Shown here piece by piece: positions 2,098 through 63,600 of a DNA stretch of 64,000 nucleotides. Origin of the DNA: Sphagnum compactum. Taxonomy: Eukaryota. The notes beneath the pieces were generated by a model. It made no database searches, was not told the origin of the DNA, and worked only from the letters and a program-made list of their open reading frames with translations. Position 1 is the stretch's first letter; each line of letters starts with the position of its first letter. A program made the position numbers and the translations under genes. The stretch lies in the NCBI GenBank assembly GCA_965153455.1, contig OZ234493.1:32850213-32914212 (forward strand), written 5' to 3'.

Positions 2098-2197
2098 AAG
2101 GAATGAGAGACACAACGACTCCAAGTAACCCACACCCAAGAAAGGAAAAGAAAAGAGAGAGAGAAAAAAAAGTAAAAAACACACTCACTCACTCTCA

Positions 2198-2234
<37 letters not shown>

Positions 2235-5303: not shown

Positions 5304-5622
5304 AACAAGGGGTGTGTCACACCGTGGCCTTGCCATTTACCTTAAAAAGTATTGCATGGCAAAAGAAGAATTATGGAAACTCAAATAATTCACAATGCAA
5401 AAATATAATCTTCAAAAAATCATCGAGAAGAAACCAAAATGCTTCAAGATATTATAACTCTATAACTAATCTCAAGTTTCAACACAAGCCAAAATATCAT
5501 CTTTCAAAAACCCTCATATAAAAATAGAGCTATTATTACCTAGGGGCCAAAATCCCTTTAGCTACTATACTCTATAATAAATCTAAACACAATATCCTTG
5601 CCTTGGTAAGCAAGGCCAACAA
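5304..5622 (-). mobile_element. ~320-bp dispersed element, copy 3
   Basis: AACAAGGGGTGTGTCACACCGTGGCCTTGCC...CCTTGCCTTGGTAAGCAAGGCCAACAA; same family as copies 1, 2 and 4. Confidence 0.78.
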
Positions 5623-16946: not shown

Positions 16947-17925
16947 TAGATATCTTTCATAAGAATAGCGAAATCTCCATTCTCACGATGAAAAAAAAAC
17001 AACAAGGCTAACATTTCCTTAAGAAGCCACAGAAAGAACCAAACAAGGGGAGACAAAAAAAAACAAAAAATGAAAAACACACACCAGTACGAACAAAAGT
17101 GCCAATCTCACACTTGTTTAGGGACCATCAACAATAGTATGTATGATAGTGACTTAACTATCACAACTTCCCCACTGACTTCATCAGCTCCCTATAATGG
17201 GTAAAGGCCGGTGACAAGCACCATCCTACAAACTGAGTTTTTGCTGCAATTTCGGAAGCAACGGAAAAACTCAGCCATACTACTGGCTAGCAACAGACCC
17301 CACAACAAAGATCAGACAAAGAAACAAAGAAAGAAAGAAAGGGAAAAGAACATGGAAAGACTAAGAACAAATGGGCTTACATGAAGCTCCCCACTTACAA
17401 AACCCGGAGCAAAATCATTCTGAAATGCCAAAAGCTGAAATTCCAAACAGGAAATTTTTTTTAAAGACCAACCCTCTAATTCTCTTTAGAAGAACTTTTA
17501 AAAGGTAGCCTTTTGCCTTCAGAAAGACAATAAGACTGACCATCTGGAAGACAAAAAACTTCTTACAACTATAAAGCCTCAAGAATCTGTAAAATTGACT
17601 ATTGATAACCCCCAGCTTTGCAGTCATTGAGATATTGGAATGAACATGAGGCATTCTAATCATTTCAATACCTGCGTACTCTAGTTGAGAACGCTTGTCA
17701 AAAATGTCACAGGATAAACCTTGAGGACTCTGTCTCACAGTTAGATCCAAGAAATTACAAGAGTAGCCTTTAGATGTACAATTCAACTCACAAGAGGTTT
17801 TTGGGTATATGCCACTACCAAAAGAGTCTTGGTTAAGGTACACGAAGTTCTCAAAATCTGGAAATCAGGAACAAAAAGATCATCCAGAAACCTACGAACC
17901 AAGGACAAACTATGAAACACAACAG
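16947..17925 (-). mobile_element. 5'-truncated Penelope-like retroelement (Naiad/Chlamys-type), copy A
   Basis: Encodes LVRRFLDDL (RT catalytic xxDD), NFLDLTV and CDIFDKRS...MPHVHSNI...GVINSQFYRFLRL...KGY (PLE RT thumb), followed by a ~450-bp non-coding tail. Flanked by the 9-bp direct repeat GAGATGAAA (16938-16946 / 17926-17934). Confidence 0.8.
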
Positions 17926-25929: not shown

Positions 25930-26308
25930 CTGTGAAAACAATCAACACTCCGCATTGCATGTGATGAACACTAGTAGAGGTCCAAATAAGCGGTGTGACT
26001 GAACACATATACTAAAGTTCTGTGTAAAGGACCTCGAACTGTGCACTGAAATGCATTGTTCCATCAAAACATGCCCAAGCCAGCATGAAACTTAATCTAC
26101 ACACAAGTCCAATAGGGACACAAACTCATTCTTGTGCCAAAAAACAAGGTTAAACAAGTTTGCTCCCAAGTTGGACCCAAGCTCTCACTTTGTCAAACAC
26201 AAGCACAGGAGGTGTTTTGGTAGACTCTTGGGCTTATGTTTTGGCAACGAATTATTGTTGTTGGTTGGCAAGGTCTCTTCTAGGTTTGGCGCTCTTTGAG
26301 AATTCTCT

Positions 26309-26626
26309 TTGTTGGCCTTGCCTTCATAGGCAAGGATATTGTGTTTAGATTCACTATAGAGTATAGTAGCTTAAGGGATTTTGGCCCCTGGGTGACAGGT
26401 CTATTTTTATATGGTGTATTTTTGAAAGATTATATTTTGGCTTGTGTTGAAACTTGAGATTAATTATAGAGTTATAATATCTTGAAGGGTTTTGGTTTCT
26501 TTTAGAGGATTTTTTGAAGATTATATTTTTGCATGGTGAAATATTTGAGTTTCCATAATTCTTCTTTTGCCTTAAGATATTTTAAAATGTAAATGGCAAG
26601 GCCACGGTGTGACACACCCCCTTGTT
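26309..26626 (+). mobile_element. ~320-bp dispersed element, copy 4 (best-preserved Helentron/HINE-like termini)
   Basis: 5' TTGTTGGCCTTGCCT-TCAT-AGGCAAGG hairpin; 3' GGCAAGGCCA, then a GGTGT-GAC-ACACC hairpin, then CCCTTGTTT. Confidence 0.78.
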
Positions 26627-27259
26627 TGATTTCCTTCACACGACTGATGAGGGGTTTAGGACCTAGGGCTTGGGATTTGGATTTTGACAACTACCATTTC
26701 CTCCCATTTGCTTTTTGGTGTTGTCTCAAGTTTGGAGGTTGGACCAACCTCTCTTTGTGTTCCTCCATTTCCCTTCTGAATTGGTGCTTTTTCTTTGAAT
26801 TAACTCATCTCAATAATTTCAGAGCACGGAGAGGCAGGCCAAAGAGAGGGTGATTTTAAGGATAACTTTATCATGGTTCACCCATGGTACACAATTGACC
26901 ATACCTGCCAATTTTTGGCAGGTTTTCAGGCAATCTTATTCATTGGCAGGAGTGGTTGAGACTTGAGACAGTCAATTCAGTCCATTTCCTACCTACCTTG
27001 GTTAGTTTATGACCTACCTATGGTCCTTTAGGCCACAGAACTTCTGCCAAATAAAATGGTCCGTTTTTAATTGCAGTCTGTGTTGGGTCTCTTTAACTCA
27101 TGCACCTGAAAATGATTTTTTTAATACTACAAATTCCACTCTTGAAAAAGCAAGTGTCATTTGTGTGTAATTCCAATTTTTTTGATATCATCAGTAATTT
27201 TAGTTGGGCTGCAAAATTGGCTGAATTTCGTTTGTAAATGAAGGTCCAATAAGTATTAA

Positions 27260-28091: not shown

Positions 28092-28385
28092 AGGTAGCAG
28101 AATTGGGTGTGTTACTAGGTTAGTAGATTGGGGTTAGTATGTAGATGGTTAGTATATAAACAAGGGCTAGTGGGTTGTTAAATAGGTTGGTAGCAGAAAT
28201 GGGTGTGTTACTAGGTTAGTAGATGGGGTTAGTATGTAGATGGTTAGTATATAAACAAGGGCTAGTGGGTTGTTAAATAGGTTGGTAGGAAAAATGGGTG
28301 TGTTACTAGGTTAGTAGACGGGGTTAGTATGTAGATGGTTAGTATATAAACAAGGGCAAGTGGGTTGTTAAATAGGTTGGTAGTA
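28092..28385 (+). repeat. Tandem repeat, ~95-96-bp unit x3
   Basis: GGGTGTGTTACTAGGTTAGTAGA recurs at 28105, 28201 and 28296. Confidence 0.92.
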
Positions 28386-40199: not shown

Positions 40200-42400
40200 T
40201 AAATTCAAATTATGAAACTCAGCGGAGGATTCAATCTGCAATATAAACCCATCACAAAAACGTCCCCATACATCTTAATATGTTCAAATCCCAAGTCAAT
40301 CAAGAAACCAAACTCTGAGATGGGGAACAAACACACAAATTTCTGGCAAGTGTGATAGATAGTCCATGTTTTGAACAGCAATAGTCCTGTTGCCTGCAAT
40401 GGCTATCCCATTTCTAGGCTATATAGTTGGTACCTGGAAGGAAGAGGGCATAGGTTAACTTATTGTCATGCAGCGATGCTCAGATTTTTTTCTGGAACTG
40501 TCTGACCCAGAGTCATGTTATTTGAGCTGATAGGTATCTTGATGAAGGTCTGTTTCAGCAAAAGTAGGTGACAACATACCTTGCATACCCCTTTCCATTA
40601 TAGAGCTAATCCATAATGAAGCTTTATATCTAGCAGATCTCATTTCCAGCATGTGGGAGTGTCTCAAATTTCAACGGGTCTTGTGCACCATGCTCTGGAA
40701 TCAATCTGAATCCCTGAATGACTGCAGTGCCGTTGCAAATCCAAATGCTTGGTGTACAGTAGAGTCACCTCTCATGGTTTACCATACCTGAGAGACACAA
40801 ACCACAATAGGGAAAAAGCTTCAAAGACACAGGCATGAAAGAAATAACATAAAGAACTAACTCACAAGTGCATCAAGGCATGTTTTTGCAGTTGACAGAG
40901 ATCTTCATAGAAAAGAAGTGCTTCTGCTATCAAACGGTTCATCATCAATCTTCACCAACACAGATAAATATAATTAAAAAATAAGGAAATGCACTGATAG
41001 GATGCCTAGGAGTTTTCGTGTTTTCATGATCTACAAGGACCACAGGAAACAATTTGAGATAATTATGGGTGAATTGGACCTTGAAGTTAATCAACACATT
41101 CTACTGAAGCACAGAAGATCACATACGTAGCCAAGATTGTAAACTCATGCTTAAACAAGAACTTCCTTTAGAATGTATTGGCTCTGGTTCACCAGAATTC
41201 TTGACAATTTATTGTCCATCCCTTCCTGAGAATCTATCTGGAAGGCTATGTCTTCACTGCATCCAAAAAGATCAGATGGGCTGACAGAGATGTTAAGATA
41301 GAGATAGGAATGCTGTTCAAAAGAGAGACTGCTGAAGACATTCAGATAGCACCTGAAGATCATGGTGGGGGTCACTGAAGCATTGTTCCATGAGTTGGTT
41401 GTCTTCACCACATCCGAAAGAGATCAGACAGGCTGGCAGAGATGTTCAGATAGAGAGACCAGTGAAGATATTCAGATAGCACATGAAGATCATGATGGGG
41501 TTCACTGAAGCATTTGTTCCACGGGTTGGTTGTCTCCACCACATCCAGAAAGATCAGATAGGCTGGCAGAGATGTTCAGACAGAGACAGGAAGACTGCTC
41601 AGAGAGAGAGGCCAGTGAAGACATTCAAATAGCACATGAAGATCACGATGGGGTTCACTGAAGCATTCGTTCCCAGGGTTGGTGGTTTTCACCACATCCA
41701 AAAAGATCGTATAGGCTGGTAGAGATGTTGAGAGAGAGATACAAATGCTGCTCACAAGAGAGAATGGTGAATATATTCAGATAGCACATGAAGATCATGA
41801 TGGGAGTTCACTGCAGCATTGGTTCCAGGGGCTGTTGGTCTACAACCATCAAACCACAAGCAGACACCACAAAAAACACCAAAGAAACCTGCAGTTTTCT
41901 TTTTGTCAGCATGGGCAGTCAGTATGCAAGGACTGTTACCTCAGGCATCAGATGTCAAGCAAGGAAGCACAGTCCTCAATCAAATGTTTGTGTGAGAGTG
42001 ATAAACACTGCTTCTCCTCTAGAACATATACTCCCTTGCCATCCAATACTCCCCTCCATCACCAACTTGAAATGACAACAGCAGCAGCACCAGATGAATC
42101 ATACACTTTCCTCTTCCATCTAGTAAATCCTTGCCACCACCAGATCGATACCTAATGCAGCATAGCACCATGGGATGGATTGCCGAGTATGGATAGGGGC
42201 TCCTGAAAGACCTGAACCAGCCAGACGAATCCAACCCCCAAACCCTAAATCCACAATCCCCCAACCCGTGAAGAAATTCCCAGTAAAACCCACAGTCGGG
42301 CGTTTGGGTGTCGGTAGATGCGCACATTCGAGGTCGCGCAATTCGCGGACGGATGTTGCACGGAACGCGCAAGGGACGTTTTCCTTCAAACGAGGAGGAA
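40200..42400 (-). ncRNA. Candidate spliced lncRNA divergent from the CNR6-like gene (exons ~42400-42152, 40787-40580, 40433-~40200)
   Basis: Canonical donors (AG|GTATCG, AAG|GTATGT) and pyrimidine-rich acceptors (TGTCTCTCAG, CTCTTCCTTCCAG); exon 2 has stops in all three frames. Confidence 0.4.
41260..41850 (+). repeat. Diverged tandem repeat, ~130-153-bp unit x4
   Basis: CATCC..AAGATC...ATTCAGATAGCACATGAAGATCATGATGGG..TCACTGAAGCATT recurs; units start near 41260, 41411, 41542 and 41695. Confidence 0.88.
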
Positions 42401-42671: not shown

Positions 42672-45600
42672 ATGGCTGCGCCGGAGGAAACTTCTGCGTC
42701 TCGGTATGTGAAGCTGGTGAAGGAGCAAGAGGCGCCCGTGGAGGACATCCGGCCGGGAGAGCTCAATCAGCCAGTACATGTGCCTCAGGTGGTTGTTGTT
42801 CTTGAGCTGTGTTTTTTTCCCCACATTCTAGATCTAGGGTTTTGCGGATCTGTTTGAAGATCTTGTGTGGGGTTTTGCCGTCTGTTACGGAGTTTGTTTT
42901 CTGGATGTGTAATCCGAAATGCTCTTGACCTGCTGCTGCACTTCTCTGTGTAACTCTCAGTCTTTTCTTACTCTATCTATGGATCCTCAGTTCTCTCTTG
43001 ATCTGCAGACTTGAAGAGACTTCAGACCAGAGGCAAGAAGAAACAGGTTCAATGTAATTATGATATAGTTTTATGTGATTTCTGTTGATCAAAAAAGAAT
43101 TTACAGTTGGTGGTTGGTGTGGTTGTTGGATAGCTGGTGGTGCACAAGTGTGCGGAATGTGGCCAGCCTCTACCCGACAGCTATGAACCACCTAGCAATG
43201 AACCTTGGACAACAGGGATTCTTGGATGTGGCGAAGACATGGATTCCTGTGAGCTTTCCTGCACCCTCTTCCATAAAACCCATCACCTCTCCATCTCTCT
43301 CATCAAATCTGAATCTTCTCTGAGTGCTGTCTCCTCGAACACACAGATCTATGTGCTGTACCAAGTGTCAGTAATCCATTCTAGCTAAAGTTATGTTGAC
43401 AATTTAAGTGCCCTGCTGATGAGTACATATGTGAATCATAGCAAGCTTGTCTCTTGAGTGCCAGCCAATGTCATGATTGAGTCTTTCTGTTGCTTCTGGA
43501 AATGCAATAAAAACTCTGGATGCAGTTTTTGTGTAATAGTTGCCCAGATTTTGGGCTGATTGGTGTATAGTTATCTACACCCACTGTTGGGAGCTGATGA
43601 AGTCAGTGTGTAGTCATGGCAGCTCATGACTGCTATTTGTGATGAAGAAGGTGACAGTTTGATACTTTGAAAGTGACTCTGATTGCATTTATTTTCATGT
43701 TTTCTTCTAATTTTTGTTTGTGGATATTTCTCTACAATTTCATAGATATGTGAATCGTACCGAGGCTTCAGAAGATGCATATCAAAGTAGATGAATTATC
43801 TTGAGTTGATGAAGTCACCCAAGAACACCAAGTACATCAATAGTACTTTTCTTTCCAAAGGGTTTCATCTTGTTTTTTATGTTTCAAACCTGGGAACCTC
43901 AGCCTTGAAAAAAAGATTCCAAAAACATGGAATCCAAATTTTTTTCCAAGTTTGCTTTTTCTTCTTTTGAGTATAGACTTTGAAGTCCTTGACTTTGACA
44001 AGTTAAAGATCCAACCTTTGCCCTTTCGCTATGATAGTCCCTTGCTTCCTTTCTCTTATGTTGATTGCACAGACCTTAAAAGATTCCAGCTCTCTTTTGT
44101 TATCACCTACATGGACAAATGTAGTAATAACTTTGTGTTTTTGTCAGAAGCATTGGGTTGTGTCAGTTTCAATGATATTATTTCTCTTGTAAAGTCTAGG
44201 TTGTCAGAATCTGCAGTTAAATTCTTCATAGTTCTTTCAACACTGTTATTAAGTTTAAGGCAAAGTGTGGACCTTGTCTTCCTTTTCTTTTTGCAGTTTG
44301 GATGTTTGACAAAGACAACAGTCTGATTCTTGTCCAATTTCCTTACAAGTTGTCCTTAGTACGAAGGTTTGTTGATGATCTCTTTGTTCCTGTTATCCTT
44401 GATTTTTCCAACTTCATGTATCTAGACAAACAGTCTATCAGTGGTGGCATATACCCAAAATCATTTTGTGAGCTTCATTGATGGATCTATTCTAATGTCT
44501 TCTCTTGCAAATTCTTGTATTTAGCAACATCCCAAGATTCCAAATTGACATTTTTGACAACTGTTCTCAGACAGAATATGCAGGTATCAACATGATTTGT
44601 ATGCCTCATTTGAATTCCAATATTTCAGATTCTGCAATATTTGGAGCAGTCAATAGTCAGTTCTCTAGTTTCTTAAGGCTTTTGTAGTCTAAAGCCTTAA
44701 GAAGTTCTTCGTAGCTCAAATGGTTAGTTTAAGAGTTCTTTGTAGGTCAAATTGCAAACTTAATTGACCTGTCTGCTGAACAAGAAGGGTTACTCTTCAA
44801 AGTTTTTTGCTGATCTGCCTTCTCTGTCCCTGATCCTTTTTTTGAGAAGGAATTCCTGGATCCATGCCGGCTTACTATGAAGAGCAGCTTGCAACTAACT
44901 TCAAAGTTTGTCTGGAACATTTAGATTTGAGACATCTGGTTTGTGCTGAAGACACTCCCACAAACCCACAAGATCTTTGGAGGGAGAGGGCATGGCAATT
45001 GATCTTGGGGCTGCAATTCTGCCAATTGTGAGAGTTGCACATGTCCCTTGCTTCTGAGAGTAGATCTACAAACACGGGCAGGAACTGAAGGGATCATTGC
45101 TTTGTGCACAGGTTGGAGAGGCTTCTTTTGCCCTTGTGTTTTATTTGGGCACAATGTTGAGAGGATGAAGGATGATGTGCAGTGGACTACACCATGTGTA
45201 TGCCATGCTATCTTTGTGGAGGGAGGCATTGCACTGGGATGTGTCACCTTGGCACTTCATGGCTTGAATCCAAAAGCAGTGTTTCTTATAGGGGAGGGCC
45301 TGGTGTTTGCATGGTGGATGTGTGGTATCTATACTGGCCTCTTTAGGCAGGAGCTCCAGCGAAAATACCACCTTCAGGTTATCATCTTCTCATTTTGCTA
45401 GATTTCAGCTAAACCCCTGTTTGTGTTAAGGATTACTCAGAGTAAGGATGCCCCTGGAAGATGACAGAAAAGTGCATGTGTGTGTGTGGCCTGCAGAACA
45501 AACCTTGTGACCCATGCATGGTACACTGCTGTTTGCACTGGTGTGCATTGTGTCAAGAGCACCGTGAAATGCAGGGCCGGCTCTCAGACAACTTAGTCAC

Positions 45601-45709
45601 ACCAATGACTGTCATCAATCCACCTGAGCCTCAAGAAATGGGCAGTCGTGATACTGCCACTGTGGAGCACAAGGAGCATGCAGAAATTCAGCTTTCAGAG
45701 ATTAATTAG
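42672..45709 (+). CDS. CNR6: PLAC8-family protein, Cell Number Regulator 6-like, 236 aa; exons 42672-42788, 43134-43248, 45112-45377, 45497-45709
   Basis: Four GT-AG-bounded exons join in frame (711 nt): [77 protein letters not shown], typical of the CNR6 subgroup. Confidence 0.93.
43471..44790 (+). mobile_element. Old, internally deleted Penelope-like element in CNR6 intron 2, copy B
   Basis: [16 protein letters not shown] (PLE 'DKG'-type motif), [12 protein letters not shown] and [34 protein letters not shown], all homologous to PLE motifs or to copies A/C; the structured tail module lies upstream at 43471-43690. Confidence 0.72.
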
Positions 45710-45863: not shown

Positions 45864-46706
45864 GGGCATTGGAATTTGACAAGCTGTGAAACAAAGTCCT
45901 CAAGGTATATCCTGTGATCTCTTTCACAGATGTTCTCAACCAGAGTATGCAGGTATTCAAATGATTTGCATGCCTCATGTTAAATCCAATATCTCAATTA
46001 CTGCTAAGTTGGGAGTTATCAATAGTCGATTTTACAGGTTTTTGAGGCTTCGTAGTTGTAAAGAGTTCTTCGTCTCTCAGATGGTCAGTCTTATTGTCCT
46101 TCTGAAAAATAAAGGCTACCCTCTAAAGATTCTGTTAAAGGGGACTAGAGGGTTGCTCAATAAGGAAAAATTCCTTTTTGGAATTTCAGAATTTGGAGTA
46201 TTCCAAATGATTCTGTATAAAGTCTTGTAAGTGGGGAGCTTCTTGTAAGCCCACTTGGTCTTTATTCTTCTCTGCTCTCCTTTTCTGTGTGTTTTGTCTA
46301 TCCTGTTGTGTTTTCTGTTTTTTGTTATCTCCTTGTGTTGTTGTTTGTTGCTATCCAGTAGCATGGCTGAGTCTTCCCTTTGCTTCCTGAATTGCAGCAG
46401 AAACTTGGTACACAAGTTAGCATTTTCACTGGCCTTTACCCACTGTAGGGAGTGATGAAGTCAGTGGGAAAGTTGTGATAGAGAAGTCACTATCATATAT
46501 GCTACTGTTGATGATCCTTAAACAGGTGTTAGACTGGCACTATTGTTCATACTGCTTTTGTGTTTTATGTCATTTTTTGTTTCTTGGTTCTTTGTTCTTT
46601 GTTTTGTCTTTCCTTCTTTGGAATTCTCTGTGGCTGGTTGAAGAAGTGTTAACCTTGCTTTGCCTTAATCATGAGAATCGAGATTTCTCGATTCTTATGA
46701 GAGATA
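45864..46706 (+). mobile_element. 5'-truncated Penelope-like element just downstream of the CNR6 stop, copy C
   Basis: RT-thumb ORF to 46230 is highly similar to copy A and has the same tail. Flanked by the direct repeat TTTGAATTGACAA (45851-45863 / 46707-46719). Confidence 0.85.
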
Positions 46707-48219
46707 TTTGAATTGACAACAGCAGCATACTCCCAGTACATCATCATGGGTACATGTGTGATCCTGTAATAGTGCCTTGATTCTGGTACAGTAAACCCTG
46801 CATGTGGGTATTTATGGTAGCTAAATCTGAAACCCTAATCCCTAAGTGGAACCTGCGATGCCATTGACAGAACATCAAGATGAAGGCTTGTTCCTACTCT
46901 TTGGGCATCAGTGCAGTAGTGCTTGGTTGCATGGGTTTTCATTCTGGACGGGCGTCCATCATAACATTCTCTGGCACCGTGCAGTGGTTTGGGTTGGTTC
47001 CCTGCCTTGCTGTTGACAAGACCCAGTTCTGAGGAAGACTATTTCCAAGCACAACTGGGTTGTGCAACACTGTTTTCACTACTTTGGGGGGGACACATTC
47101 AGGGTCCAGTGATGGGTGGAGTCAATGTAATGCAGTCAGGTTTGTTGATTTTCTCCTCTATGCCAACACAAAGAAAGTGCCTTGAGGACCACAGGGGATT
47201 TTAGACCAGTGGACTGTCTAGATTGTGTTCTTTCAGATCAGCTGGATGAAGTCTTTCAGTGCATCTTTTACTACCTGCAAAATCATCTAGAGCCTTGGTA
47301 ATCTACAACTACCAGGGATTCCAAACCACTCGTCATTCTTTTGCTTAATCCTCCACTTGTTGGCCAATTGTGGTCAGGAAATTATGGAGCAAATTCAATT
47401 TTTTTGATAGATGCAGAATGAGAATGATCTGAAGTTTTTTGACAAAAATAAAACTCAAGCTGCCCCTCATCATGTAATCCTTTATTTGCAGGAAAGGAAC
47501 ATCAAGAGGATGGTGGGTCAATGGGCAAACCCAGATGCTCATTTGTTGTTTCAATGTTGTACAATTACTGTCATTTATCTGTGCAAACTATTACAGGGTC
47601 AAACATCTGGTGAAATGTTGAAAGGAGGGTTGTCATGTCAAGCAGCTGCATGTCAAAAGAGGACAGAATATATGCAACACAATAAGAGAACTCATGGACA
47701 ATTTTTTTTGTCACAAGTCAAGTAGCAGATATGGATATGGTATGACCTCATAATGTGCACTCTAAACTCCCATACCATGATCTGCCAACTCTCCCTCCAC
47801 TTCAAATGAACCAAATTCAACTTGCAACAAACAATTACTGATAACAACACAGCTGTGAACTTTGCAACCTTCTTCATCCCAATGCCTTCATAATTGACTT
47901 TCAAATCAGCAACTGGCAGACACTGACACACTAACTGAAGCCTGGAAAACAAATTTGGAATTTCAATTGACCTAAACCAAGATCTTGACACAAAAGGCAC
48001 AAAGGCAAAAATGAGCACTAAAACTCAAAGAAAAGACTTGCAAGAAAAGAGTACAAACAAACCAATGAGTGGCATCTGGCTGGCTTGCAGCTCCTTGGAT
48101 ATCAAAGCTTAAATATTATTGCATTGTAGTTGAACATCAATTTTGTCCATGACCACCACCTGAAGCTTTCTTTGCTTGAATGTTGCAGGGGTGTTCATGA
48201 ACAAAGCAATCAGACATGA

Positions 48220-50880
48220 TTACAAATAGTCAAACAGCAGTGCCATTCCACTGGTGAAATCTGAGAGCGGGGACTGAGGCCTTGTGTCGAGCTCCACATT
48301 GGCAAAATCATCATCATCATCATCATTGTTCCGACAAGGAGTGCAGTCATCATGTTCACCTGCAAACCCAGCTGCCAGAAGATTTTCCCAATATTCAACT
48401 CCCATTGAGTCTTCCACATTGACTACTACCACTTGCGGCATTGCAACATTCACAGCAGACTTATTGGAAATCCATGAATCCTCTACTGCTGCTGGTGTAG
48501 TAATCTCTCGCATCCCGGAGTGGCATTCAAGCTCTGCAGCAGCTGGTGTAGTCTCTTCTGGCACCCTGGAGTGACATTCAAGCTCTGCAGCAGCTGGAGG
48601 TGTAATCTCTTGTGGTACTCTAGAGTGGCATTCAAGCTCTGCAGCAGCTGGAGTAATAATCTCTTGTGGTACCCTAGAGTGGCATTCGAGCTCTGCAGCA
48701 GCTGGAGTGATCTGTTCTGGTACCCTGGAGGAGTTGCCTTCAAGTTCTGCAGCAGGTGCAATACTCTCTGGAACCCCAGACTGGCATTCAAGCTCATGCA
48801 CTGTAGCAGATGGAGAAATGGGTTTTCTCACGACTTCTTGTTTCTTGGAAGGTTGCCAGTATTCTTTGGAGTGTTGTTGCTGATTAGCATGTGGCCCAGC
48901 AGCAGCAGCAGCAGAGCTGAATCTTTTCCTTGCAAGTGTGTTAGAAACAGCAATCTTCAGAGCATCCTCCATATTGTGTAGTGCTCTAGAAGACGGTACA
49001 GGGTAAGTGGTTGTGGTGGTGTCTAGTGCAGCAATTTCCAAGTAAGGTTTGTGTTCAGTGCTCATGAGCTCTATGAGTCCATTGATCTCCGAATACCGCT
49101 TGCGTTTCTGTGCTTGATTATTCTCTGCCTGAGGAGCTGCTTGGGCTTCATTCAGCGGCTTGTGGCTGGAGCCCTGGTTTTCGAAAGGAGATTGGGCAAC
49201 AAGTGATGCCGAGGAAGAAGATGGTGGAGATGATGTGGAAGCTGGATTGCTGCTATTTGCTGCTTTGTTTTGAACTGCAGAGGGTTTTGAGGTACCTTGA
49301 GCAGCACAAAGCTCGTCATGCCGGCTCCTATCATGACCAGCTAAGGGTTTCATCATCTGCAAAGTTCCAGCGACTACTGCATTGGGGTTTCTGTAGCTGC
49401 TGCCTGCTGCCGCTGCTGCACCCAGCCATTTGAGGGTTTCGTGTCGCTCAGAGCCGCGGCGCGCTTCTGCTGATGTGCCGGGGCTCCGAGACGAGGAAGA
49501 AGAGCTTCCTCCTCCTCGCTGCCTTGCTGCTGCTAGGGTTTGGACTTTTGGAGGTTGTTGGAGTGCCGGCGCTGCTGCTGCTGCTGCAGGGGTATCATCG
49601 TCATGGGCTCTTCTCAACCCTTGAACAGCTCCTGAAGGTTTTGCTCCAGTGCTCGGCAGCCATAGTACTTGGTTTGGTGGTGGAGATCCCATCGCTACCG
49701 CTTCCGGAAATGCGACTCTACTGTGGACGCTGGTGGTCGATGGAAAGTACTGGCGACTGCTGCTGCTGTGCAAGCTCTGGCCGGACGATTGTTGCATATT
49801 TCGAGCTTGGCCGTCTCCAACATCCGCGACTTCATCCTCAAAGAACCCACGGCCTTCAGCCTCGCCTGCTGCTTCTCTGAGCAACCTGAGCAAAACCCCA
49901 TCTTCTTCGCACTGCTGCTGCTGCTCCTCCTCATGAGGCCAAAGGAGACTCATGCCTGAAGGAGCGTCTTCAATGCTGTCTAGGAAGTTGTGGGCGAGGG
50001 AGGATGATGATTCCAGGCTCTTCTGTGCTCCAAGCTGCACCACCTTCATGGGCTCCTCCTGCATGATCGCATGTTGGAAGGCAGTAGTCATCCCTGCATC
50101 ATCAACAACATGAGCAGCAGGAGCAGCAGCAGTAGGAGCCTGTATCAACCCGGGATGCTGCTGCACCCGGGAATCACAAGTCAGAATCTCGCCATGATGA
50201 TGATCTCCACAGAGCTTGTCAAATCCTTGTGCACCACCACTGAAGAAGCTGCAACTGTTGTTGTTGATCACGGTAACACTAGCCGATTCCTGATCTGCTG
50301 CTGCATTAAGCTTGTCTTCATGAGCCTTGAGGAAGCTCAAGAAAGCATCATCGTGGCTTTGAGGACTGGTTGCAGCTACTAATGAGTCCACAGACCTCAT
50401 CAAGTAGTCTCCAGGAGATGATTCCCCTCCTGCAGCAAAATCATTCACAACAACAGCAACAGAAGATGATGCAGGGGGGGAATTATTATTGCAGCAAACT
50501 GGGGGTGAAGACGAGAAAGAAGTTGTTGATGTTGTTGTTGTTGTTGCTGCTGCTGCAGCTGCTACTGTTGTTTGTGGCAAATTGCTGCTTGCATATTTCC
50601 CTCTTGCAAGTGCTGCCAATGGATCTTGGTACACTAGAAAATCACTAGTGTTATTGTCCCGAGCTACTGCTCCTTGGTGGCGGTAGTAGTTCAGATATGA
50701 TTTTCTTGCAACTGATTGATCATGAGCTGCTGCTGCTGCCGCTGAAATTGCTGAAATCTCATCTCCAATGAGTTGTTGTCCTAAGCTTGTGAGCATGGCA
50801 GAATGGGTTCCTCCTGATCCCATAACATTACTTGGCAGCCATCTTCTACTACCCAGCGGGCTCAGAAAATAATTTGTCAT
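48220..50880 (-). CDS. Uncharacterised 886-aa low-complexity protein (A/S/Q-rich), single exon, with a C-terminal tandem repeat and basic NLS-like motifs
   Basis: 2661-nt uninterrupted ORF with elevated GC in AT-rich surroundings; KRKR and RKR motifs; acidic/aromatic tail; no domain recognised. Confidence 0.8.
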   Translation of the reverse strand: MTNYFLSPLGSRRWLPSNVMGSGGTHSAMLTSLGQQLIGDEISAISAAAAAAHDQSVARKSYLNYYRHQGAVARDNNTSDFLVYQDPLAALARGKYASSNLPQTTVAAAAAATTTTTSTTSFSSSPPVCCNNNSPPASSSVAVVVNDFAAGGESSPGDYLMRSVDSLVAATSPQSHDDAFLSFLKAHEDKLNAAADQESASVTVINNNSCSFFSGGAQGFDKLCGDHHHGEILTCDSRVQQHPGLIQAPTAAAPAAHVVDDAGMTTAFQHAIMQEEPMKVVQLGAQKSLESSSSLAHNFLDSIEDAPSGMSLLWPHEEEQQQQCEEDGVLLRLLREAAGEAEGRGFFEDEVADVGDGQARNMQQSSGQSLHSSSSRQYFPSTTSVHSRVAFPEAVAMGSPPPNQVLWLPSTGAKPSGAVQGLRRAHDDDTPAAAAAAPALQQPPKVQTLAAARQRGGGSSSSSSRSPGTSAEARRGSERHETLKWLGAAAAAGSSYRNPNAVVAGTLQMMKPLAGHDRSRHDELCAAQGTSKPSAVQNKAANSSNPASTSSPPSSSSASLVAQSPFENQGSSHKPLNEAQAAPQAENNQAQKRKRYSEINGLIELMSTEHKPYLEIAALDTTTTTYPVPSSRALHNMEDALKIAVSNTLARKRFSSAAAAAGPHANQQQHSKEYWQPSKKQEVVRKPISPSATVHELECQSGVPESIAPAAELEGNSSRVPEQITPAAAELECHSRVPQEIITPAAAELECHSRVPQEITPPAAAELECHSRVPEETTPAAAELECHSGMREITTPAAVEDSWISNKSAVNVAMPQVVVVNVEDSMGVEYWENLLAAGFAGEHDDCTPCRNNDDDDDDFANVELDTRPQSPLSDFTSGMALLFDYL
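48483..48800 (-). repeat. Coding tandem repeat, 51-54-nt unit x~6 (TPAAAELECHSRVPxEI)
   Basis: GAGTG(G/A)CATTC(A/G)AGCTCTGCAGCAGCTGG recurs at ~48518, 48569, 48623 and 48677, with diverged flanking units; all length differences are multiples of 3. Confidence 0.92.
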
Positions 50881-51912
50881 GGCTGCTGCAGAGGAGATTC
50901 TTTCCTCCTGTTTTTTTTCCTCACAGGAGCTGCTGTTGCTGCTGCTAAGTTTTGCAAAAGCTCAAGACATAAGAAGCCCGAAACCTTGCAATCCTATCAT
51001 CGTCATCTTCTGCTTCTTCTTGTACTAGTTTGGGTTCCCTAATTGCAAAGAGGGAGGATGGGACTCAGCTTACAGATTGTGTGAGATTTGCATCTTCATT
51101 TTTCTTTCTGCTTTGGGTGTCCCTACAATTTGCCAGGAATTGAAGAGGGAAGTAACAAGTAACCATCTTGTGATGATCTTCTTCTTCTTATACTTTGGGT
51201 CCTAATCCAAAGGGAGTTTGGAGAGTGGAACTCAGCTTGTGTTATCTTAAGTCATAACCAATTTTTTTACTGTAGAGGTCAGAAGCTTTTGAGAAGGTAC
51301 CTGTGATGGAGAAGTACAAAAGCCATGGTACTTATGTTTTGGCTAAACCTAAAACATCTCCCATCTCCATGACTGACTTATTGCAAGCGGTCCGTTTTTG
51401 ATATGGAAAATATCACCGATCTAATACAAGTGATCCATTTATAACATGGATAGGTTTTGACATCTAATTTGAGCTAACTTGATGCCATGTAAATTTTTCC
51501 TTTTCTTTTTATTTATTCATTTCTACATTTTCCTAATCTACGGTGTGTCTATCAATAAAGTTTTGCAGGGTTGCACCTAAAACAGATGGGCATTCTTGCT
51601 GTAGGTGTTTGAGAGAGAGAGAGAGAGAGAGAGAAAATACAACACAAAATACAAAATCTCTACCTATTCAAATCGCTTGGAAGGGAAGAAATATTATATA
51701 TAATAAAGTGGGGCGAGAGCGGCCAGTTTTGGCATAATAGGGCATCAAACTTGTAACTAAGAATCAAAGTTTTACAAAGTGAAATAACTGGGACCCAAAC
51801 TAGTTTTTCCAACAAATTTGGTGATAAATTGAGTTTCATGCTGTCTTTCCTTTTTCCTAAGCGCCTCCACAGCTCCTTCATATATGTTGACTGCTCCTCC
51901 CTGTACAACTGC

Positions 51913-59493: not shown

Positions 59494-60158
59494 TAACTAT
59501 TTTTGTTGTACCTTTTCAGGTTCGGTGATAATTACATATTTTTAAAATGTCAATTTTTTATTTTTTATTTCCAAAATGCCAAAAGTTAAAAGAAATTATT
59601 TGCTTGTGGGTGCTGAATTTTTGTTTTGGGAACTACCTAATTTTGGGAAAGTGTGATGGATTTGGTGGCAGAGACAAAGAAGTTGGCGAAGAGTGACTTT
59701 GTGAGTAGAAATCATTATCTACTTTCTTCCTTGTTTTGCTTTGAAATCTTGAGTCACAAATTGAGATCAAATATCTTTTTCAGAGATGTCACAGTGAAAG
59801 CTAAACACTCAAACCGCTAGACTATGATTCAATGTTGGTTTGGTATCAACTTTTTGACATATTAGCTTGTTAGAAGAGTATTGGTACTATAATTTTTTTC
59901 AAAGTTATATATCCTTTTGATATCAATAACCCATGGTTTGCAATTTCATGGTGCAATCGTGTAATCTAAATTTGACTAGTGTTATACTAGTAGGTATATA
60001 AAGTGAACTCTGGCATTGATTCAATATCCTTGTGAATGCAAAATTTCTAAATGCCATGCAACACAAGTATGATATGAATGACCAACACAAGTACATTACA
60101 AAGGCCAAGTTGTAGATTGTAGCCATTGAAACGTTGAAAAAATCAAATAGCATGACAA

Positions 60159-60642
60159 AATAATCATTGCAAATGCAAATTGAAAACCAAATGAAAGCAC
60201 ATTTGTCTTATTGGAATTGTCGAAAAAACGATAAGCATGTTAGAATAATCACTGCAAATGCAAATTGTGAACCAAATGAAAGCACATTTGCCTTATTGCA
60301 AATGTCGAAAAAATTGATAAGCATGTTAGAATAATCATTACAAATGCAAATTGAGAACCAAATGAAAGCACATTTGCCTTATTGCAAATGTCGAAAAAAC
60401 TGATAAGCATGTTAGAATAATCATTACAAATGCAAATTGAGAACCAAATGAAAGCACATTTGCCTTATTGCAAATGTCGAAAAAATTGATAAGCATGTTA
60501 GAATAATCATTACAAATGCAAATTGAGAACCAAATGAAAGCACATTTGCCTTATTGCAAATGTCGAAAAAATTGATAAGCATGTTAGAATAATCATTACA
60601 AATGCAAATTGAGAACCAAATGAAAGCACATTTGCCTTATTG
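60159..60642 (+). repeat. Near-perfect tandem repeat, 86-bp unit x~5.6
   Basis: AATAATC starts at 60159, 60244, 60330, 60416, 60502 and 60588. Confidence 0.95.
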
Positions 60643-63600
60643 TTCACGATCACACACATACATAAGCAAGAAAATAACCCACATTCATTTCCAAAATGGT
60701 TAATGCATTGAAATTAGTTAGACGAGGGTGCCACAAAACAAAAAGTGTCATACCCTAGTTGAAAGGTTGCCATTGCTCTCAACTTTCAACATCAAGACAC
60801 AAAAATCATGCAAGTGTGTGAAGCAAAGATTGATGCCAAGGGAGATGGCTACACAAAACCCCTCAAGATTGGTATGCGTTTTAGCATTTAAATTAGTGTT
60901 GGGTGGTTTTCTATTTGTTGTCAACCTTGGTAGTGTGGGTTTTGAAGGATCCTTTTAAAAATTGTTGGTGGTGAATTAAGAGTTCAATGGTGACCTCCAT
61001 TAAGCACTTGGATTAGAGTCCAAGTCTAAGGGGTTGAATAAAAAAACTTGGATTTCAATCACATACAATTTACACATTGCAACCAAATTTCCAATTCAAA
61101 TTTTAAGAACTATTAAGACACTTTTAAAAAAAAAACACATATATTTAAGAATAGATAATGCTATTTTGTAATGAGCACTTTTGTACACCTAGTGCCCATT
61201 ACGAACTCAAATTGCATAACATGGGTCCAAAATGTAATGGGTATCATCCATCTTTTTTGAGCAAAAGATAAATTAGGCCAAACATAGACAAGGAAAAGAA
61301 GAAATAGGTAGTATTTTTGTACTACATGCAATAACAACTATGTGCACATATATATGGGGCATTACTAAATTTATTAACTTGATTAGTTGGGTTCATTCAT
61401 GGTTGGGGTTTAAAAAAAAGCCTCCACAACTTTTCTAAGGTTATATTTTACTAATAACATTTAAATGAAATAAATTTGGATAAGAAAAATTGAATAATCC
61501 AAGATAAGATAATTGATGTGGTGGTGGTGATTTTTCACATGTGTACATAAATTTGTGCATCAATTTTTTGGTTTACAAGTAAAAATATATAAACTGTTTA
61601 AATGAATTTTTATAAATAACCAAAAAAAAAAATTTGCATAATTTTTTTTTGCACATGTGACTTGCACCTGAAGCTAAAATGTTTGAGCTTAATGAATATA
61701 AACAATTGGCCAAATGGTAAACAAAAAAGGTCCTTTCCTCTGGAGACTGTTGGTTTAAAATTTCATGTTTTTGAAATTTTGATATGAATTGTTGTTTCAT
61801 TCTTTTTAATTATTTTATAACAAAAATATAGTTAAAAAAATTGATATATTTAGTTAAAAGACATTTACATAATATTCAAATCAATTTAAAATATTTTTTA
61901 TTAACTTAACAAGACTTGATTTTATTTATTGGCATACAACAATCTAATACAATTGTTATCATTTAAATAATACAAAATTATATAATTGAACTCTAAAATC
62001 GTATTAAAGTTAAATGTTCATTTTTGGAACCCCAGTTTTGAATGAACATAATTATGACTCTTTGATTATTCTAGCAATTGAACCACAAGAACAATCAATC
62101 TTCCACACCATGGCCCATGTTTTATTTATAAATATTTTCACAATATTATGGGTGTGGTTGGGTTTCCCCTTGTTTGTGAAAAGGCAGCTGGATTTCTCCC
62201 ATGGTTATTATTTTTGGATGGCTCATTGGTTTGGATCCATAAACCCTTGTAAAGACCTTGGTAAAGCTTAGGTGGCATTTAGAAAACCACCCAACATTGA
62301 TCTAAACCTTACATTTTGGTTAGTCATTGTTATTAGATTTTTGCAAAACACATACTAGTGGTATATTAGTATTGGCCCAATACCAATTTGGAAAAATACT
62401 AAGCTAGTCAAGTTTTTAATAATATTGTTGATATCGTTATTGATATTAAGGGTCATCATATATATTGGACCAACCTTATTATAAAATTTATACATTTGTT
62501 GAAATTCATGTATAAATTATGATCACGCAAATGAACATGCCATGACAAAGTTGTGAGAAAAAATTTCAAATTGATGGCAATAGATATTTACAAGATTAAC
62601 TTGGGTTGTTAGTTATCACAACTTGTGTTATTCAAATTATATTATAAAGGCCATTGTAATTTTATGGGCTAGTTTTTGGTGATTCTTAAATTTTCTATTG
62701 TATTGCTTACCGTTCCTCTTTTGCACAATGATTAAAGTTTGAGGGTTTTATTGCAAAAGGATTTTGAGGTGGGTTTGGAGAGGGAAATAATGCTTTATGA
62801 TCTAAGCTTAGGGGTTGAGGGAGTGGAGATTCATTTGAGGAGGGCTCAACCGAATGGTGCATTCAAGTTTTCAACATCTTGTGCATTGACAAGCCACTTT
62901 TTAAACGTTTCCATGTCCAAGGGTGTTAAAAAATCTTGGTCAAGAATTATATGTACTAGCGTGAACAATATCATGTAACCATAACTTGTGTGTCTACATT
63001 AAAAATCCATAGGCTAACCAAATGGGTGGTTTCACAAAGAACAATGAACTACTTAGCTATGCACCAACACCTATTTGTAAGAAAAGATTGATGGTATCTT
63101 CCCATTCTACAACTAGTTTTTATTACTATGCATGTAATAATCCATGCACAATTATCATTATGTCATGAAAAATATTATTTCAACTTCCTTAGCAACAATC
63201 CTCAACGATGGGGGATTCATCATACTTACATGAGGGTAAGCAAAGGGCTTTGTAATCATGAACCTTGGTGGCAACCCATGAAATGAATTGGCTTTAAATG
63301 CCTACATATAATTCAAAGTGCCCACATCTTGTTGGACTATAATGTCATATGAGATCTTTGATATTTCCCATTGTTGATTCTCCTCATCATATTTGTCAAA
63401 GCTACTCTCTTTATCATCATCAACTTCATCACCTAACTTGGATTCCATCATTGTTTTTTCAGTGGTAAGTTGATGTTGTGCAAACTTGACTACATTTTAT
63501 TACACTTGTTCAAGTGTGGTCACCATTATCCATAGTTATATTTGCATGCCATTAATGTACACCACTTTTGGCATGATAAACAATGTGTTTTTTTTTTCAA

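What the first reader, a model, noticed from the sequence alone, without database searches (positions are those of the whole stretch)
46350..46545. Candidate undescribed structured RNA (possible ribozyme) carried by the Penelope-like elements
Seen in three diverged copies (C 46350-46545 +, A 17095-17290 -, B 43471-43690 +). (i) An enclosing stem with compensatory changes: C CAGTAGCATG/TATGCTACTG, A CAGTAGTATG/CATACTATTG, B TGTCAT/GTGACA. (ii) Hairpin 1, CTGAGTTTTT/AAAAACTCAG in A, with conserved apical TGCTTC. (iii) Hairpin 2, CCCACTG/CAGTGGG in C, around a conserved loop TWGGGAG(C)TGATGAAGT. (iv) Hairpin 3, TGATAG/CTATCA in A and C, replaced by AGTCATG/CATGACT in B. (v) The loop TAGGGA is complementary to TCCCTA (A) or TCCTTA (C) just 3' of the enclosing stem, a likely pseudoknot (weak in B); GCTTC could also pair with loop GAAGT. 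Established: PLEs usually carry hammerhead ribozymes with a CUGAUGA core. Here CTGATGA is present in A and B (C lacks the first C), but I cannot build canonical stems II/III with GAAA. Inference: a variant or new ribozyme, or an RT-binding RNA domain.
Basis: partly seen in the sequence, partly recalled or inferred. Interest (0 to 1): 0.82.

Follow-up and report, generated by a model that had tools for sequence, protein, structure and literature searches.

The report
Permuted hammerhead-like RNA in retroelement tail
The 3' tail of a moss-type Penelope-like retroelement carries a conserved, compensation-supported five-helix RNA domain whose loops hold every hammerhead-ribozyme core letter in the rare S-G-C ("non-circularly permuted") order, so it is probably a rearranged hammerhead, though cleavage has not been tested.

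Summary
The three copies exist and are real homologues. 80 related loci from metagenomes gave 110 covariance-model matches. 106 of the 107 matches in loci lie on the reverse-transcriptase strand, about 125 nt after the ORF.

Between two diverged tail families, the enclosing stem P1, hairpin P2 and hairpin P5 keep pairing through many double substitutions. 89% of cells are paired, against 26-42% for slid controls.

Rfam finds no hammerhead or any other family. A plain descriptor finds no canonical hammerhead in the elements.

All hammerhead core pieces are nevertheless present:
- Block S: stem III, then GUC, then UUCCC.
- Block G: GCA, then GAA, then the stem III return strand.
- Block C: GGGAG, then CUGAUGA, then AGU, held in a hairpin loop.

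This S-G-C order, with a stem closing block C, is the "type-SGC" non-circular permutation validated in 2023, known so far only from metatranscriptomes.

Weak points are a stem II of only 2 bp, little covariation in stem I, a competing pairing for UUCCC, and core lesions in all three window copies. One RNA-contig joint starts exactly at the predicted cleavage site, which is a weak hint.

Verdict: the structured RNA is real. A permuted hammerhead is plausible (about 0.5) but unproven.

The parts
45880..46230 (+). Copy C: decayed C-terminal part of the PLE reverse-transcriptase ORF (thumb/HTH region), ending at the family stop
   Evidence: aligns with window ORF 17415-17864(-) and with P0001-P0017
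46356..46507 (+). Copy C: five-helix domain closed by stem P1 (5' arm 46356-46365, 3' arm 46498-46507)
   Evidence: P1 has 7 of 10 (A3) and 10 of 10 (A4) pairs with changes on both sides
46367..46378 (+). Copy C block S: stem III 5' strand CUGAGU (46367-72), C17 (46373), stem I strand UUCCC (46374-78). The predicted cleavage lies between 46373 and 46374
   Evidence: An RNA-contig joint starts at 46374. The assignment is my inference
46379..46398 (+). Copy C: inner hairpin P2i. Its apical loop reads UUCCGGAA (a palindrome) in the family consensus and is decayed to UUCCUGAA here
46397..46408 (+). Copy C block G: GCA (candidate stem II side), GAA (46400-02), stem III 3' strand ACUUGG (46403-08)
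46439..46468 (+). Copy C: hairpin P4 (46439-45 with 46462-68). Its loop holds block C: GGGAG (46448-52), UGAUGA (46453-58, with the C of CUGAUGA missing before 46453) and AGU (46459-61)
   Evidence: ('C put in behind 46452' in most contigs)
46475..46496 (+). Copy C: hairpin P5 (GUGAUAG/CUAUCAU) with the conserved loop letters AGUCA
   Evidence: pairs 173-191 (GC 7, AU 5) and 174-190 (UA 6, CG 5)
46675..46707 (+). Copy C: terminal hairpin (46675-82 with 46687-94) and the element's 3' end ...TTCTTATGAGAGATAT (46707)
   Evidence: Compensatory changes against the B family were seen by eye only
17132..17285 (-). Copy A: the same domain. It has GUU in place of GUC (17270-68), A in place of G12 (17241) and an intact CUGAUGA (17187-81)
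   Evidence: 173.8 bits
16950..17397 (-). Copy A: the whole tail, from the family stop codon TAA (17397-95) to the 3' end at 16950
17415..17864 (-). Copy A: C-terminal part of the RT ORF (149 aa)
43444..43749 (+). Copy B: a tail-only copy of a second, diverged tail family. Domain 43466-43647, C17 43483, A in place of G12 (43510), CUGAUGA 43594-43600, P5 43616-22 with 43630-36, terminal hairpin 43716-37
   Evidence: 170.4 bits

Best explanation
The block is the core of a structured, cis-acting RNA in the roughly 450-nt 3' tail of a Penelope-like retroelement. The element is about 2.25 kb long and apparently lacks an endonuclease. It belongs to the clade whose relatives have an N-terminal endonuclease (Chlamys / 'PLE-X'-like). 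The host genome looks like a moss.

Shown here: a stem P1 encloses a multi-helix junction made of P2 (outer and inner parts), a variable P3, P4 and P5. Pairing is maintained by compensatory substitutions between two tail families. The RNA is read on the RT strand. Tails are abundant in RNA libraries.

Inferred: the junction assembles a hammerhead active site in the non-circularly permuted order S-G-C.
- Block S is CUGAGU, then C17, then UUCCC.
- Block G is GCA, then GAA, then ACUCAG.
- These two blocks form the two sides of the internal loop of hairpin P2.
- Block C is GGGAG, then CUGAUGA, then AGU. It sits in the loop of hairpin P4 and docks into that internal loop.
- Docking forms stem I (UUCCC:GGGAG) and a minimal stem II (G-C, plus U.G or U-A).
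- P4 ties the far ends of stems I and II together on one side, and the inner hairpin of P2 does so on the other.

Active master copies would then cut themselves after GUC, which is between 46373 and 46374 in copy C. This would trim element or read-through transcripts. The surrounding scaffold and the terminal hairpin most likely serve as the handle by which the element's own RT picks its template.

All three window copies carry a core lesion and are probably dead.
For: Structure:
- 84.9% of cells pair on 13 diverged copies, against 35.5-49.6% for slid controls.
- 89.2% pair on 88 distinct copies, against 25.8-42.2%.
- P1, P2 and P5 carry many double changes. RNAalifold on its own recovered part of P1, P2i and P5.
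- Strand: 297 G.U cells against 105 A.C cells, which is 89.2% paired on this strand and 82.2% on the other. 106 of 107 matches in loci lie on the RT strand.

Link to the element:
- 71 of 80 loci have the tail. The 9 misses are loci that end within 20 nt of the ORF match.
- The RT family is related to proteins with an N-terminal GIY-YIG domain plus RVT_1, at 27% identity and E 3e-58.

Hammerhead reading:
- The family consensus holds CUGAUGA, GAA-A and GUC, with a 6-bp stem III closed by A-U. UUCCC abuts C17 and GGGAG abuts C3.
- Among 36 distinct copies outside the main family, the majority letter at every core position is the hammerhead letter: U4 26/26, A9 27/29, A14 24/25, C17 18/22, and G12 weakest at 13/25.
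- Stem I cells are paired at 60/68 to 64/68 per pair, with 4 U-A double changes.
- Core positions are among the least variable inside the main family. The mean minor-allele count is 2.5, against 3.9 for paired and 5.4 for other unpaired positions.
- The S-G-C order, a 5-bp stem I and a stem tying the far sides of I and II are the published features of type-SGC hammerheads, which cleave in vitro (PMC10085705, sections read). I wrote the model down before finding that paper.
- One RNA contig in each of runs X1, X2 and X3 joins 46010 directly to 46374, the first base after the predicted cut.
- Craig et al. 2021 report that relatives lack canonical hammerheads but sometimes have core halves 35-50 nt apart on either side (PMC8557442, passages read).
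Against: - Stem II is only G-C plus U.G or U-A with an A.A mismatch, and it shows no change on both sides. Published SGC ribozymes show covariation in stem II.
- The linker from stem I to stem II is a hairpin of about 19 nt, not about 3 nt.
- Stem I is nearly invariant, so it has little covariation. A competing pairing, UUCCCG:UGGGGA, fits as well or better: 95.1% paired, and the G/A polymorphism next to UUCCC always faces a U.
- G12 is A in 9 of 25 diverged copies, including A and B of the window. C lacks C3.
- No Rfam hammerhead match up to E = 10.
- None of the 13 internal 5' ends of genomic tail fragments lies at the predicted cut.
- The contig joint may be a DNA deletion allele. About 25 joints were found on 1861 nt, so a hit on one named position has odds of about 3% by chance. 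Copy C itself lacks C3.
- Thermodynamic z-scores are modest (-1.6 to -3.0), and the opposite strand folds as well.
- Nothing here measures cleavage or protein binding.
Confidence: 0.5

Rival explanations
1. The domain is a non-catalytic recognition and priming platform. The element's RT uses it to choose and position its own RNA for target-primed reverse transcription, as 3' UTR structures do in R2 and other stringent non-LTR elements. The hammerhead letters are a vestige of an ancestral canonical hammerhead or are reused as protein contacts.
For: - The whole tail is structured and strand-linked to the RT. It ends in a conserved terminal hairpin and a fixed 3' terminus without poly(A).
- Tail-only copies of a second family exist, such as B at 43444-43749 and L045 2171-2510. 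This is what 5' truncation, or mobilisation through the tail alone, would give.
- An element without its own endonuclease needs tight control of its template.
- Stem II is too weak for a textbook hammerhead.
Against: It does not explain why all 13 core letters sit with the right neighbours for stems I and III, nor why they are the least variable loop letters. This reading does not exclude catalysis. No binding data exist. In the one PLE studied in vitro, the required RNA lay at the start of the ORF, not in a 3' domain (PMC11167929, main text read).
Confidence: 0.33
2. The central part folds differently. UUCCCG pairs with UGGGGA, and CCC pairs with GGG in a small hairpin. CUGAUGA is then an exposed loop or linker, and the RNA is a scaffold or a two-state switch with no hammerhead site.
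For: RNAalifold chose this pairing. On 88 copies it is 95.1% paired, and 34-323 reads GU 39, AU 26, GC 2.
Against: It leaves the conserved complementarity ACUG/CAGU of P4 unexplained; those pairs are kept in 66-70 of about 80 cells each. B-family copies lose one pair. The changes are one-sided only. The two pairings could simply alternate as 'off' and 'on' states.
Confidence: 0.12
3. There is no selected RNA structure. The similarity is only shared ancestry of young repeat copies, or the region is coding or a DNA-level signal.
For: Inside the main family the whole tail is uniformly about 90% conserved, block and flanks alike. Copies decay neutrally after insertion.
Against: Between families, stems change on both sides yet stay paired, while loops stay fixed. 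There is an excess of G.U over A.C. No conserved reading frame crosses the block. P3 is replaced by an unrelated hairpin at the same place.
Confidence: 0.03

Closest known systems
Type-SGC (non-circularly permuted) hammerhead ribozymes, HRIMA-1 motif and variants (Eckert et al., NAR 2023, PMC10085705; abstract, results section 13 and passages read)
   Same: The 5'-to-3' order is the same: site block, GAAA block, CUGAnGA block. Stem I has 5 bp. One side of stem I is joined to one side of stem II. A further stem ties the other sides together by closing the CUGAnGA strand. The core needs pseudoknots.
   Different: - Here the join from stem I to stem II is a hairpin of about 19 nt with a palindromic loop, not about 3 nt.
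- Stem II is 2 bp without covariation.
- The motif is embedded in a 150-nt domain closed by P1.
- It is DNA-encoded in a eukaryotic retroelement, whereas the paper found SGC only in metatranscriptomes and 'no RNAs in genomes of known organisms' apart from one GCS candidate.
- Cleavage is untested here.
- The paper's supplementary figures with the SGC consensus could not be seen.
Hammerhead ribozymes of Penelope-like elements (Cervera & de la Pena 2014, PMC4209133, passages read; Rfam hammerhead families)
   Same: They lie in the repeated or 3' non-coding part of PLEs. They share the CUGAUGA, GAAA and UH core. A palindromic loop is thought to allow dimers. Canonical type I motifs are reported in Selaginella PLEs.
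   Different: Those are type I (order C-G-S) with a hairpin stem II. Here no Rfam hammerhead model matches up to E = 10, and a simple descriptor finds none in the tails.
EN-deficient 'PLE-X' and Chlamys elements of the green lineage (Craig et al. 2021, PMC8557442, passages read)
   Same: There is a CxC motif ahead of the RT, and no C-terminal GIY-YIG domain. Relatives have an N-terminal GIY-YIG domain. The paper notes BlastP hits in mosses.
   Different: The paper states that PLE-X families have canonical hammerheads (in its supplementary file S2, which I could not see). The elements here have none. Insertion here is not rDNA-specific, because the 3' flanks differ.
3' UTR RNA structures of site-specific or stringent non-LTR retrotransposons such as R2 (recalled; no call)
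   Same: This is a structured 3' end on the sense strand, carried by every copy down to short 5'-truncated ones, and presumed to be bound by the element's RT.
   Different: There is no sequence or Rfam relation. This is a different RT class (PLE, sister to telomerase RT). Binding is untested.
Discontinuous hammerhead in mammalian Clec2 3' UTRs (recalled; only titles listed)
   Same: The core pieces lie far apart in the primary sequence.
   Different: That one is a type III order with a very long stem I loop, not a change in block order.

Membership tests
Hammerhead ribozyme, type SGC (non-circular permutation) | Blocks occur in the order S (III side, UH, I side), G (II side, GAAA, III side), C (I side, CUGAnGA, II side) | tested here: met
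   Read directly from the family consensus and the diverged copies. Definition taken from PMC10085705 section 13.
Hammerhead ribozyme, type SGC (non-circular permutation) | All conserved core nucleotides are present (CUGAnGA, GAAA, U-H) | tested here: met
   Met in the main-family consensus and as the majority letter in 36 other distinct copies. Not met in any of the three window copies: A has G12>A and C17>U, B has G12>A, and C lacks C3.
Hammerhead ribozyme, type SGC (non-circular permutation) | Stem III next to GAA-A and U-H, supported by covariation | tested here: met
   6 bp closed by A-U. All 6 pairs show some change on both sides, and 90.8-92.4% of cells are paired.
Hammerhead ribozyme, type SGC (non-circular permutation) | Stem I abuts H17 and C3 | tested here: inconclusive
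   UUCCC:GGGAG is paired in 60/68 to 64/68 cells per pair. Changes are almost all one-sided, with 4 U-A cells. A rival partner, UGGGGA, fits equally well.
Hammerhead ribozyme, type SGC (non-circular permutation) | Stem II abuts A9 and G12, supported by covariation | tested here: not met
   Only G-C and U.G or U-A, plus an A.A that never pairs (0 of 70 cells). No change on both sides. A coaxial stack with P4 could stand in for it, which is my inference.
Hammerhead ribozyme, type SGC (non-circular permutation) | A stem ties the far sides of stems I and II, and a short link joins I to II | tested here: inconclusive
   P4 closes block C: 87.8% of cells paired, and 6 of 7 pairs have a few double changes. 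The link from I to II is a hairpin of about 19 nt instead of about 3 nt.
Hammerhead ribozyme, type SGC (non-circular permutation) | Site-specific self-cleavage 3' of H17 | not testable with these tools
   The only hint is an RNA-contig joint that starts at 46374. Contigs cannot show RNA ends.
Canonical hammerhead (types I-III; Rfam hammerhead families) | Matches a curated covariance model, or has a hairpin stem II between CUGAnGA and GAAA | tested here: not met
   There were 0 hammerhead matches up to E = 10 in the window and in 7 loci totalling 61.5 kb. The descriptor gave 7 scattered hits in 624 kb, none in a tail.
Penelope-like element, N-terminal-EN clade (Chlamys / PLE-X-like) | RT related to RTs that are fused to a GIY-YIG endonuclease, with a CxC motif ahead of the RT | tested here: met
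   P0022 against P0026: 27% identity over 582 columns, E 3e-58. P0026, P0030, P0036 and P0040 have GIY-YIG at residues about 95-216, with RVT_1 further on in three of them. CxC (C-A/D-C) is seen in P0022 and L045. Pfam itself does not recognise the window ORFs.
Penelope-like element, N-terminal-EN clade (Chlamys / PLE-X-like) | Own endonuclease domain | tested here: not met
   The homology shared among loci starts about 2.25 kb from the 3' end, just before the CxC motif. No GIY-YIG was found in P0001-P0024. An upstream exon cannot be excluded.

The most novel reading that the evidence does not exclude
This is the first genome-encoded, retroelement-borne example of a non-circularly permuted (S-G-C) hammerhead, and it is active in master copies. 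It is also a new sub-architecture. A palindromic-loop hairpin and a second hairpin clamp stems I and II into a four-way junction on top of the catalytic three-way core, which makes up for a 2-bp stem II. If so, permuted hammerheads may be the 'missing' ribozymes of the large Naiad/Chlamys branch of Penelope-like elements, where searches with canonical descriptors failed.
Probability: 0.3. Interest if true: 0.82.

Novelty: new variant of a known kind. Interest (0 to 1): 0.68.

Why it matters
Non-circular permutations of an RNA fold are known from a single 2023 study, and there only from RNA-only, virus-like sequences of unknown hosts.

Finding the same block order in the tail of a nuclear retroelement would give that fold a host, a genetic context and a plausible origin. 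The element has hundreds of DNA copies and abundant transcripts.

It would also bear on an open point in retroelement biology. Hammerheads are near-universal in Penelope-like elements, yet they are reported missing from the Naiad/Chlamys branch. Permuted motifs would escape the descriptors that were used.

Even without catalysis, this is a new structured RNA family, supported by covariation and absent from Rfam. It marks the template end of an endonuclease-less, telomerase-related reverse transcriptase, and its function can be tested directly.

Tried and rejected
- Rfam at gathering score and at E <= 10, on the window and on 7 loci: no relevant match.
- A simple canonical-hammerhead descriptor (CUGAnGA, hairpin of at least 4 bp, GAAA): 7 scattered hits, none in tails.
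- The window's own genome is not held.
- Earlier findings of this scan: none.
- Pfam on the window ORFs and on P0001-P0022: no RT model recognised.
- A PDB profile search with A2: nothing.
L045, L007 and L061 change GAAG without any change in CUUC. Rejected.
Rejected as a conserved feature.
- Type I, II and III threadings of the sequence by hand: none closes stem II, and none gives A15.1-U16.1 in the right place.
- A box C/D or k-turn reading of UGAUGA: there is no opposing CUGA strand. Dropped.
- An extension of stem I by 1.6-2.6 and 1.7-2.7: 60 of 70 and 67 of 67 cells unpaired. Dropped, apart from a few B-family copies.
- Enrichment of genomic 5' truncations at the predicted cut: 0 of 13 internal fragment starts.
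- Read laying gave contigs only. There is no table of RNA ends, so no evidence on cleavage either way. The higher contig pile-up on the block may only reflect the 90% likeness filter.
- B as a 5' pseudo-LTR of the next element. Rejected, because B has its own terminal hairpin and 3' end at 43749.
- My first folding script timed out.
- Literature: the terms 'type-SGC', 'SGC hammerhead' and 'non-circular permutation' are held by one relevant paper only. 'Penelope-like' with 'covariation' gave 11 papers, and none of the 10 listed is on such a tail RNA. A search joining Penelope-like with moss names listed nothing relevant among its top 15.
Full report
**1. The observation**

- A and C belong to one repeat. 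It runs from a decayed ORF to a sharp 3' end: 45884-46707 against 17740-16950, at 76% identity.
- B shares only about 300 nt with them.
- Two details needed correction after comparison with further copies. In B the homologous third hairpin is ATGGCAG/CTGCTAT, and the homologous 3' arm of the enclosing stem is TGTGATGAAG.
- The proposed pseudoknot partner 3' of the stem is not kept in the B-type family.

**2. What carries it**

- The ORF upstream of A (17415-17864, minus strand) has close relatives in the protein collection. They show RT motifs and end in ...RVL-stop.
- Pfam does not recognise these proteins.
- A 545-aa member, P0022, aligns at 27% identity (E 3e-58) with proteins of about 1000 aa. 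Those carry a GIY-YIG domain near the N-terminus and RVT_1 further on.
- That is the permuted domain order of the Naiad/Chlamys branch of Penelope-like elements (Craig et al. 2021, PMC8557442, passages read).
- P0022 and L045 also show the C-x-C motif.
- Homology shared among loci starts only about 2.25 kb from the 3' end, so the element seems to lack its own endonuclease. This matches the 'PLE-X' families of that paper.
- The window also holds PLAC8-type exons, a copia-type RT fragment and other plant-like features.
- The RNA runs that hold the stretch are labelled moss or plant metagenomes.

**3. More copies**

- No genome is held for the window.
- A scan of metagenome contigs with the ORF alignment found 462 relatives, of which 80 loci were kept.
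- 71 of the 80 loci have the tail directly after the ORF. The 9 without it end within 20 nt of the ORF match.
- The element ends sharply at ...TTCTTATGAAAGATAT, with unrelated flanks and no poly(A).
- Inside this main family the whole tail is uniformly about 90% conserved, so conservation there says nothing about function.
- The informative comparison is with a second, much more diverged tail family. It includes B of the window, L045 2206-2510, L065 7125-7385 and others, and mostly occurs as tail-only copies.
- A covariance model built from 13 diverged copies found 110 matches at E <= 0.01 in 624 kb. 106 of the 107 matches in loci lie on the RT strand. The window has exactly the three known copies.

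**4. Structure**

With my structure on the 13-sequence MAFFT alignment:
- 84.9% of cells pair, against 35.5-49.6% when partners are slid by 1-3 columns.
- 13 pairs carry changes on both sides, against 5-10 for the slid controls.
- None of 500 shuffles reaches the observed pairing or covariation score.

On the 88 distinct model-aligned copies (this alignment leans toward the model):
- 89.2% of cells pair, against 25.8-42.2%.
- 153 cells have double changes, against 29-67.

Further points:
- The strongest pairs are family-level swaps in the enclosing stem P1 (for example UA 49 / CG 11, GC 44 / UA 14, UA 48 / CG 16) and in P5 (AU 32 / GU 22 / GC 20, UA 59 / CG 15).
- RNAalifold on its own recovered part of P1, the inner part of P2, and P5.
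- P3 is a hairpin of unrelated sequence in the two families.
- G.U cells outnumber A.C cells 297 to 105, so the RT-sense strand pairs better (89.2% against 82.2%).
- Folding-energy z-scores are unremarkable and do not separate the strands.
- The terminal hairpin of the tail also differs between families by what look like three double changes. I saw this by eye only.

**5. What it is not**

- Rfam 15 gives no match at the gathering scores.
- It gives no hammerhead or other ribozyme up to E = 10, in the window or in 61.5 kb of loci.
- A plain descriptor for a hairpin stem II between CUGAnGA and GAAA finds nothing recurrent.

**6. The hammerhead reading**

Every core element of a hammerhead is nevertheless present in the family consensus, with the right neighbours for two of the three stems.
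- CUGAGU pairs with ACUCAG and is closed by U-A. This fits stem III with A15.1-U16.1.
- The next letter, C, faces an A in the hairpin and stays unpaired in most copies. This fits C17.
- GAA precedes ACUCAG.
- UUCCC follows C17 directly, and GGGAG directly precedes CUGAUGA. This is a candidate 5-bp stem I.

The order along the RNA is site block, GAAA block, then CUGAUGA block. The last of these is presented in the loop of hairpin P4. I wrote this model down.

A later literature search found that this block order is the 'type-SGC' non-circular permutation of the hammerhead. It was discovered and shown to cleave in vitro in 2023 (PMC10085705; abstract, section 13 and passages). That paper lists the following features:
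- a 5-bp stem I;
- a direct link from one side of stem I to one side of stem II;
- a further stem tying the other two sides together.

Here P4 is that tying stem, and the inner hairpin of P2 is the link.

The paper found these RNAs only in metatranscriptomes, and none in genomes of known organisms apart from one doubtful candidate of another type. No other paper in the library uses these terms.

**7. Support and weaknesses of that reading**

Support:
- In 36 distinct copies outside the main family, the majority letter at all 13 core positions is the hammerhead letter.
- Core positions vary least within the main family.
- Stem I cells pair in 88-94% of copies, with 4 U-A double changes.
- Most expressed copies carry the C that copy C lacks.

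Weaknesses:
- Stem II is only G-C plus U.G or U-A next to an A.A, with no covariation.
- Stem I is almost invariant.
- A rival pairing of UUCCCG with UGGGGA is at least as well kept. It also explains the G/A polymorphism beside UUCCC.
- G12 is A in 9 of 25 diverged copies.
- All three window copies have a core lesion.

**8. An unexplained coincidence**

- In RNA-library contigs laid on copy C, a 224-nt contig joins 46010 directly to 46374 with 0-1 mismatches. It appears in each of X1, X2 and X3, though X2 and X3 may be one data set.
- 46374 is the first base after the predicted cut.
- About 25 joints were reported on 1861 nt, so the chance of one landing on a named position is roughly 3%.
- The joint could be a DNA deletion allele. 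Copy C itself lacks C3, so cleavage in cis is unlikely.
- Genomic 5'-truncated tails do not start at this site (0 of 13).
- Contigs cannot show RNA ends.

**9. Function**

- Shown: this is a conserved, sense-strand, multi-helix RNA domain. It is present in every copy that reaches that far, it sits in a tail with a fixed terminus and a terminal hairpin, and it is abundant in RNA libraries.
- Inferred at about 0.5: its core is a permuted hammerhead.
- Inferred at about 0.3-0.35: master copies cut themselves after GUC.
- Inferred and not exclusive: the scaffold and the terminal hairpin are the RT's template handle.
- The conserved apical loop, which reads UUCCGGAA in both family ancestors, is a palindrome and could mediate RNA dimers. 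This is untested.

**10. Limits**

- The supplementary files of Craig 2021 and Eckert 2023 could not be read. They may show whether moss tails or long-linker SGC variants were already noted.
- All external copies come from a few related metagenome samples and probably from one or a few host species.
- Family-level swaps count few independent events.

Noticed in passing
window 43134-45709 (+): This is a PLAC8-family gene. Exons lie around 43134-43260, 45003-45401 and 45446-45709. Copy B and a further internally deleted PLE fragment (about 43900-44728) sit in its intron. Copy C starts about 170 nt after its stop codon. RNA contigs show a GT..AG splice from 45374 to 45494.
   Followed up: partly
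window 46010 -> 46374: An RNA-library contig of 224 nt, present in 3 runs, skips 363 nt. It resumes exactly at the first base after the GUC of the block, with no microhomology. It could be a deletion allele, a template switch at a cleaved end, or chance.
   Followed up: partly
family consensus; window 46384-46393, 17256-17247, 43494-43503: The apical loop of the inner hairpin reads as the 8-nt palindrome UUCCGGAA in the main-family consensus and in L045. Elsewhere it has decayed at its CpG to UCUGGA or UCCAGA. It is a candidate kissing-loop dimerisation site.
   Followed up: no
window 46675-46707, 16983-16950 (-), 43716-43749: A terminal hairpin with the conserved apex GGAGAUUUCUCU is followed by a fixed 3' end (..AUGAAAGAUAU, or ..CAUAGAUAU in B). 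The stem differs between the two tail families by apparent double changes. In L063 and L077 the last 11 nt or so are duplicated in tandem, like the 'tail' signature described for PLEs.
   Followed up: partly
L001 5907-6040, L006 993-1110: Main-family elements are followed within 8-40 nt by 5'-truncated tails of the second family. This points to nested or adjacent insertion of PLEs into older PLE tails.
   Followed up: no
window 48220-50961 (-): A 913-aa open frame has no Pfam match. It contains six copies of a repeat of about 51-54 nt (48485-48809). A weak SNORD12-like match (E 0.68) lies at 48250-48363 on the same strand.
   Followed up: no
window 60137-60652; 28129-28413; 41250-41807: Tandem repeats with periods of 86 nt, 95 nt and about 153 nt.
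   Followed up: no
window 1769-3042, 5304-5626, 26303-26631: A family of direct and inverted repeats of about 100-200 nt at 80-92% identity, resembling a small non-autonomous transposon.
   Followed up: no
window 20259-20510 (+): A fragment of a copia-type reverse transcriptase reading frame.
   Followed up: no
L063 2100-2176, L077 2686-2763, L079 2687-2764: CUGAUGA and GAAA are joined by a 6-bp stem with a loop of about 60 nt, roughly 450 nt upstream of a second-family tail fragment. This may be chance.
   Followed up: no
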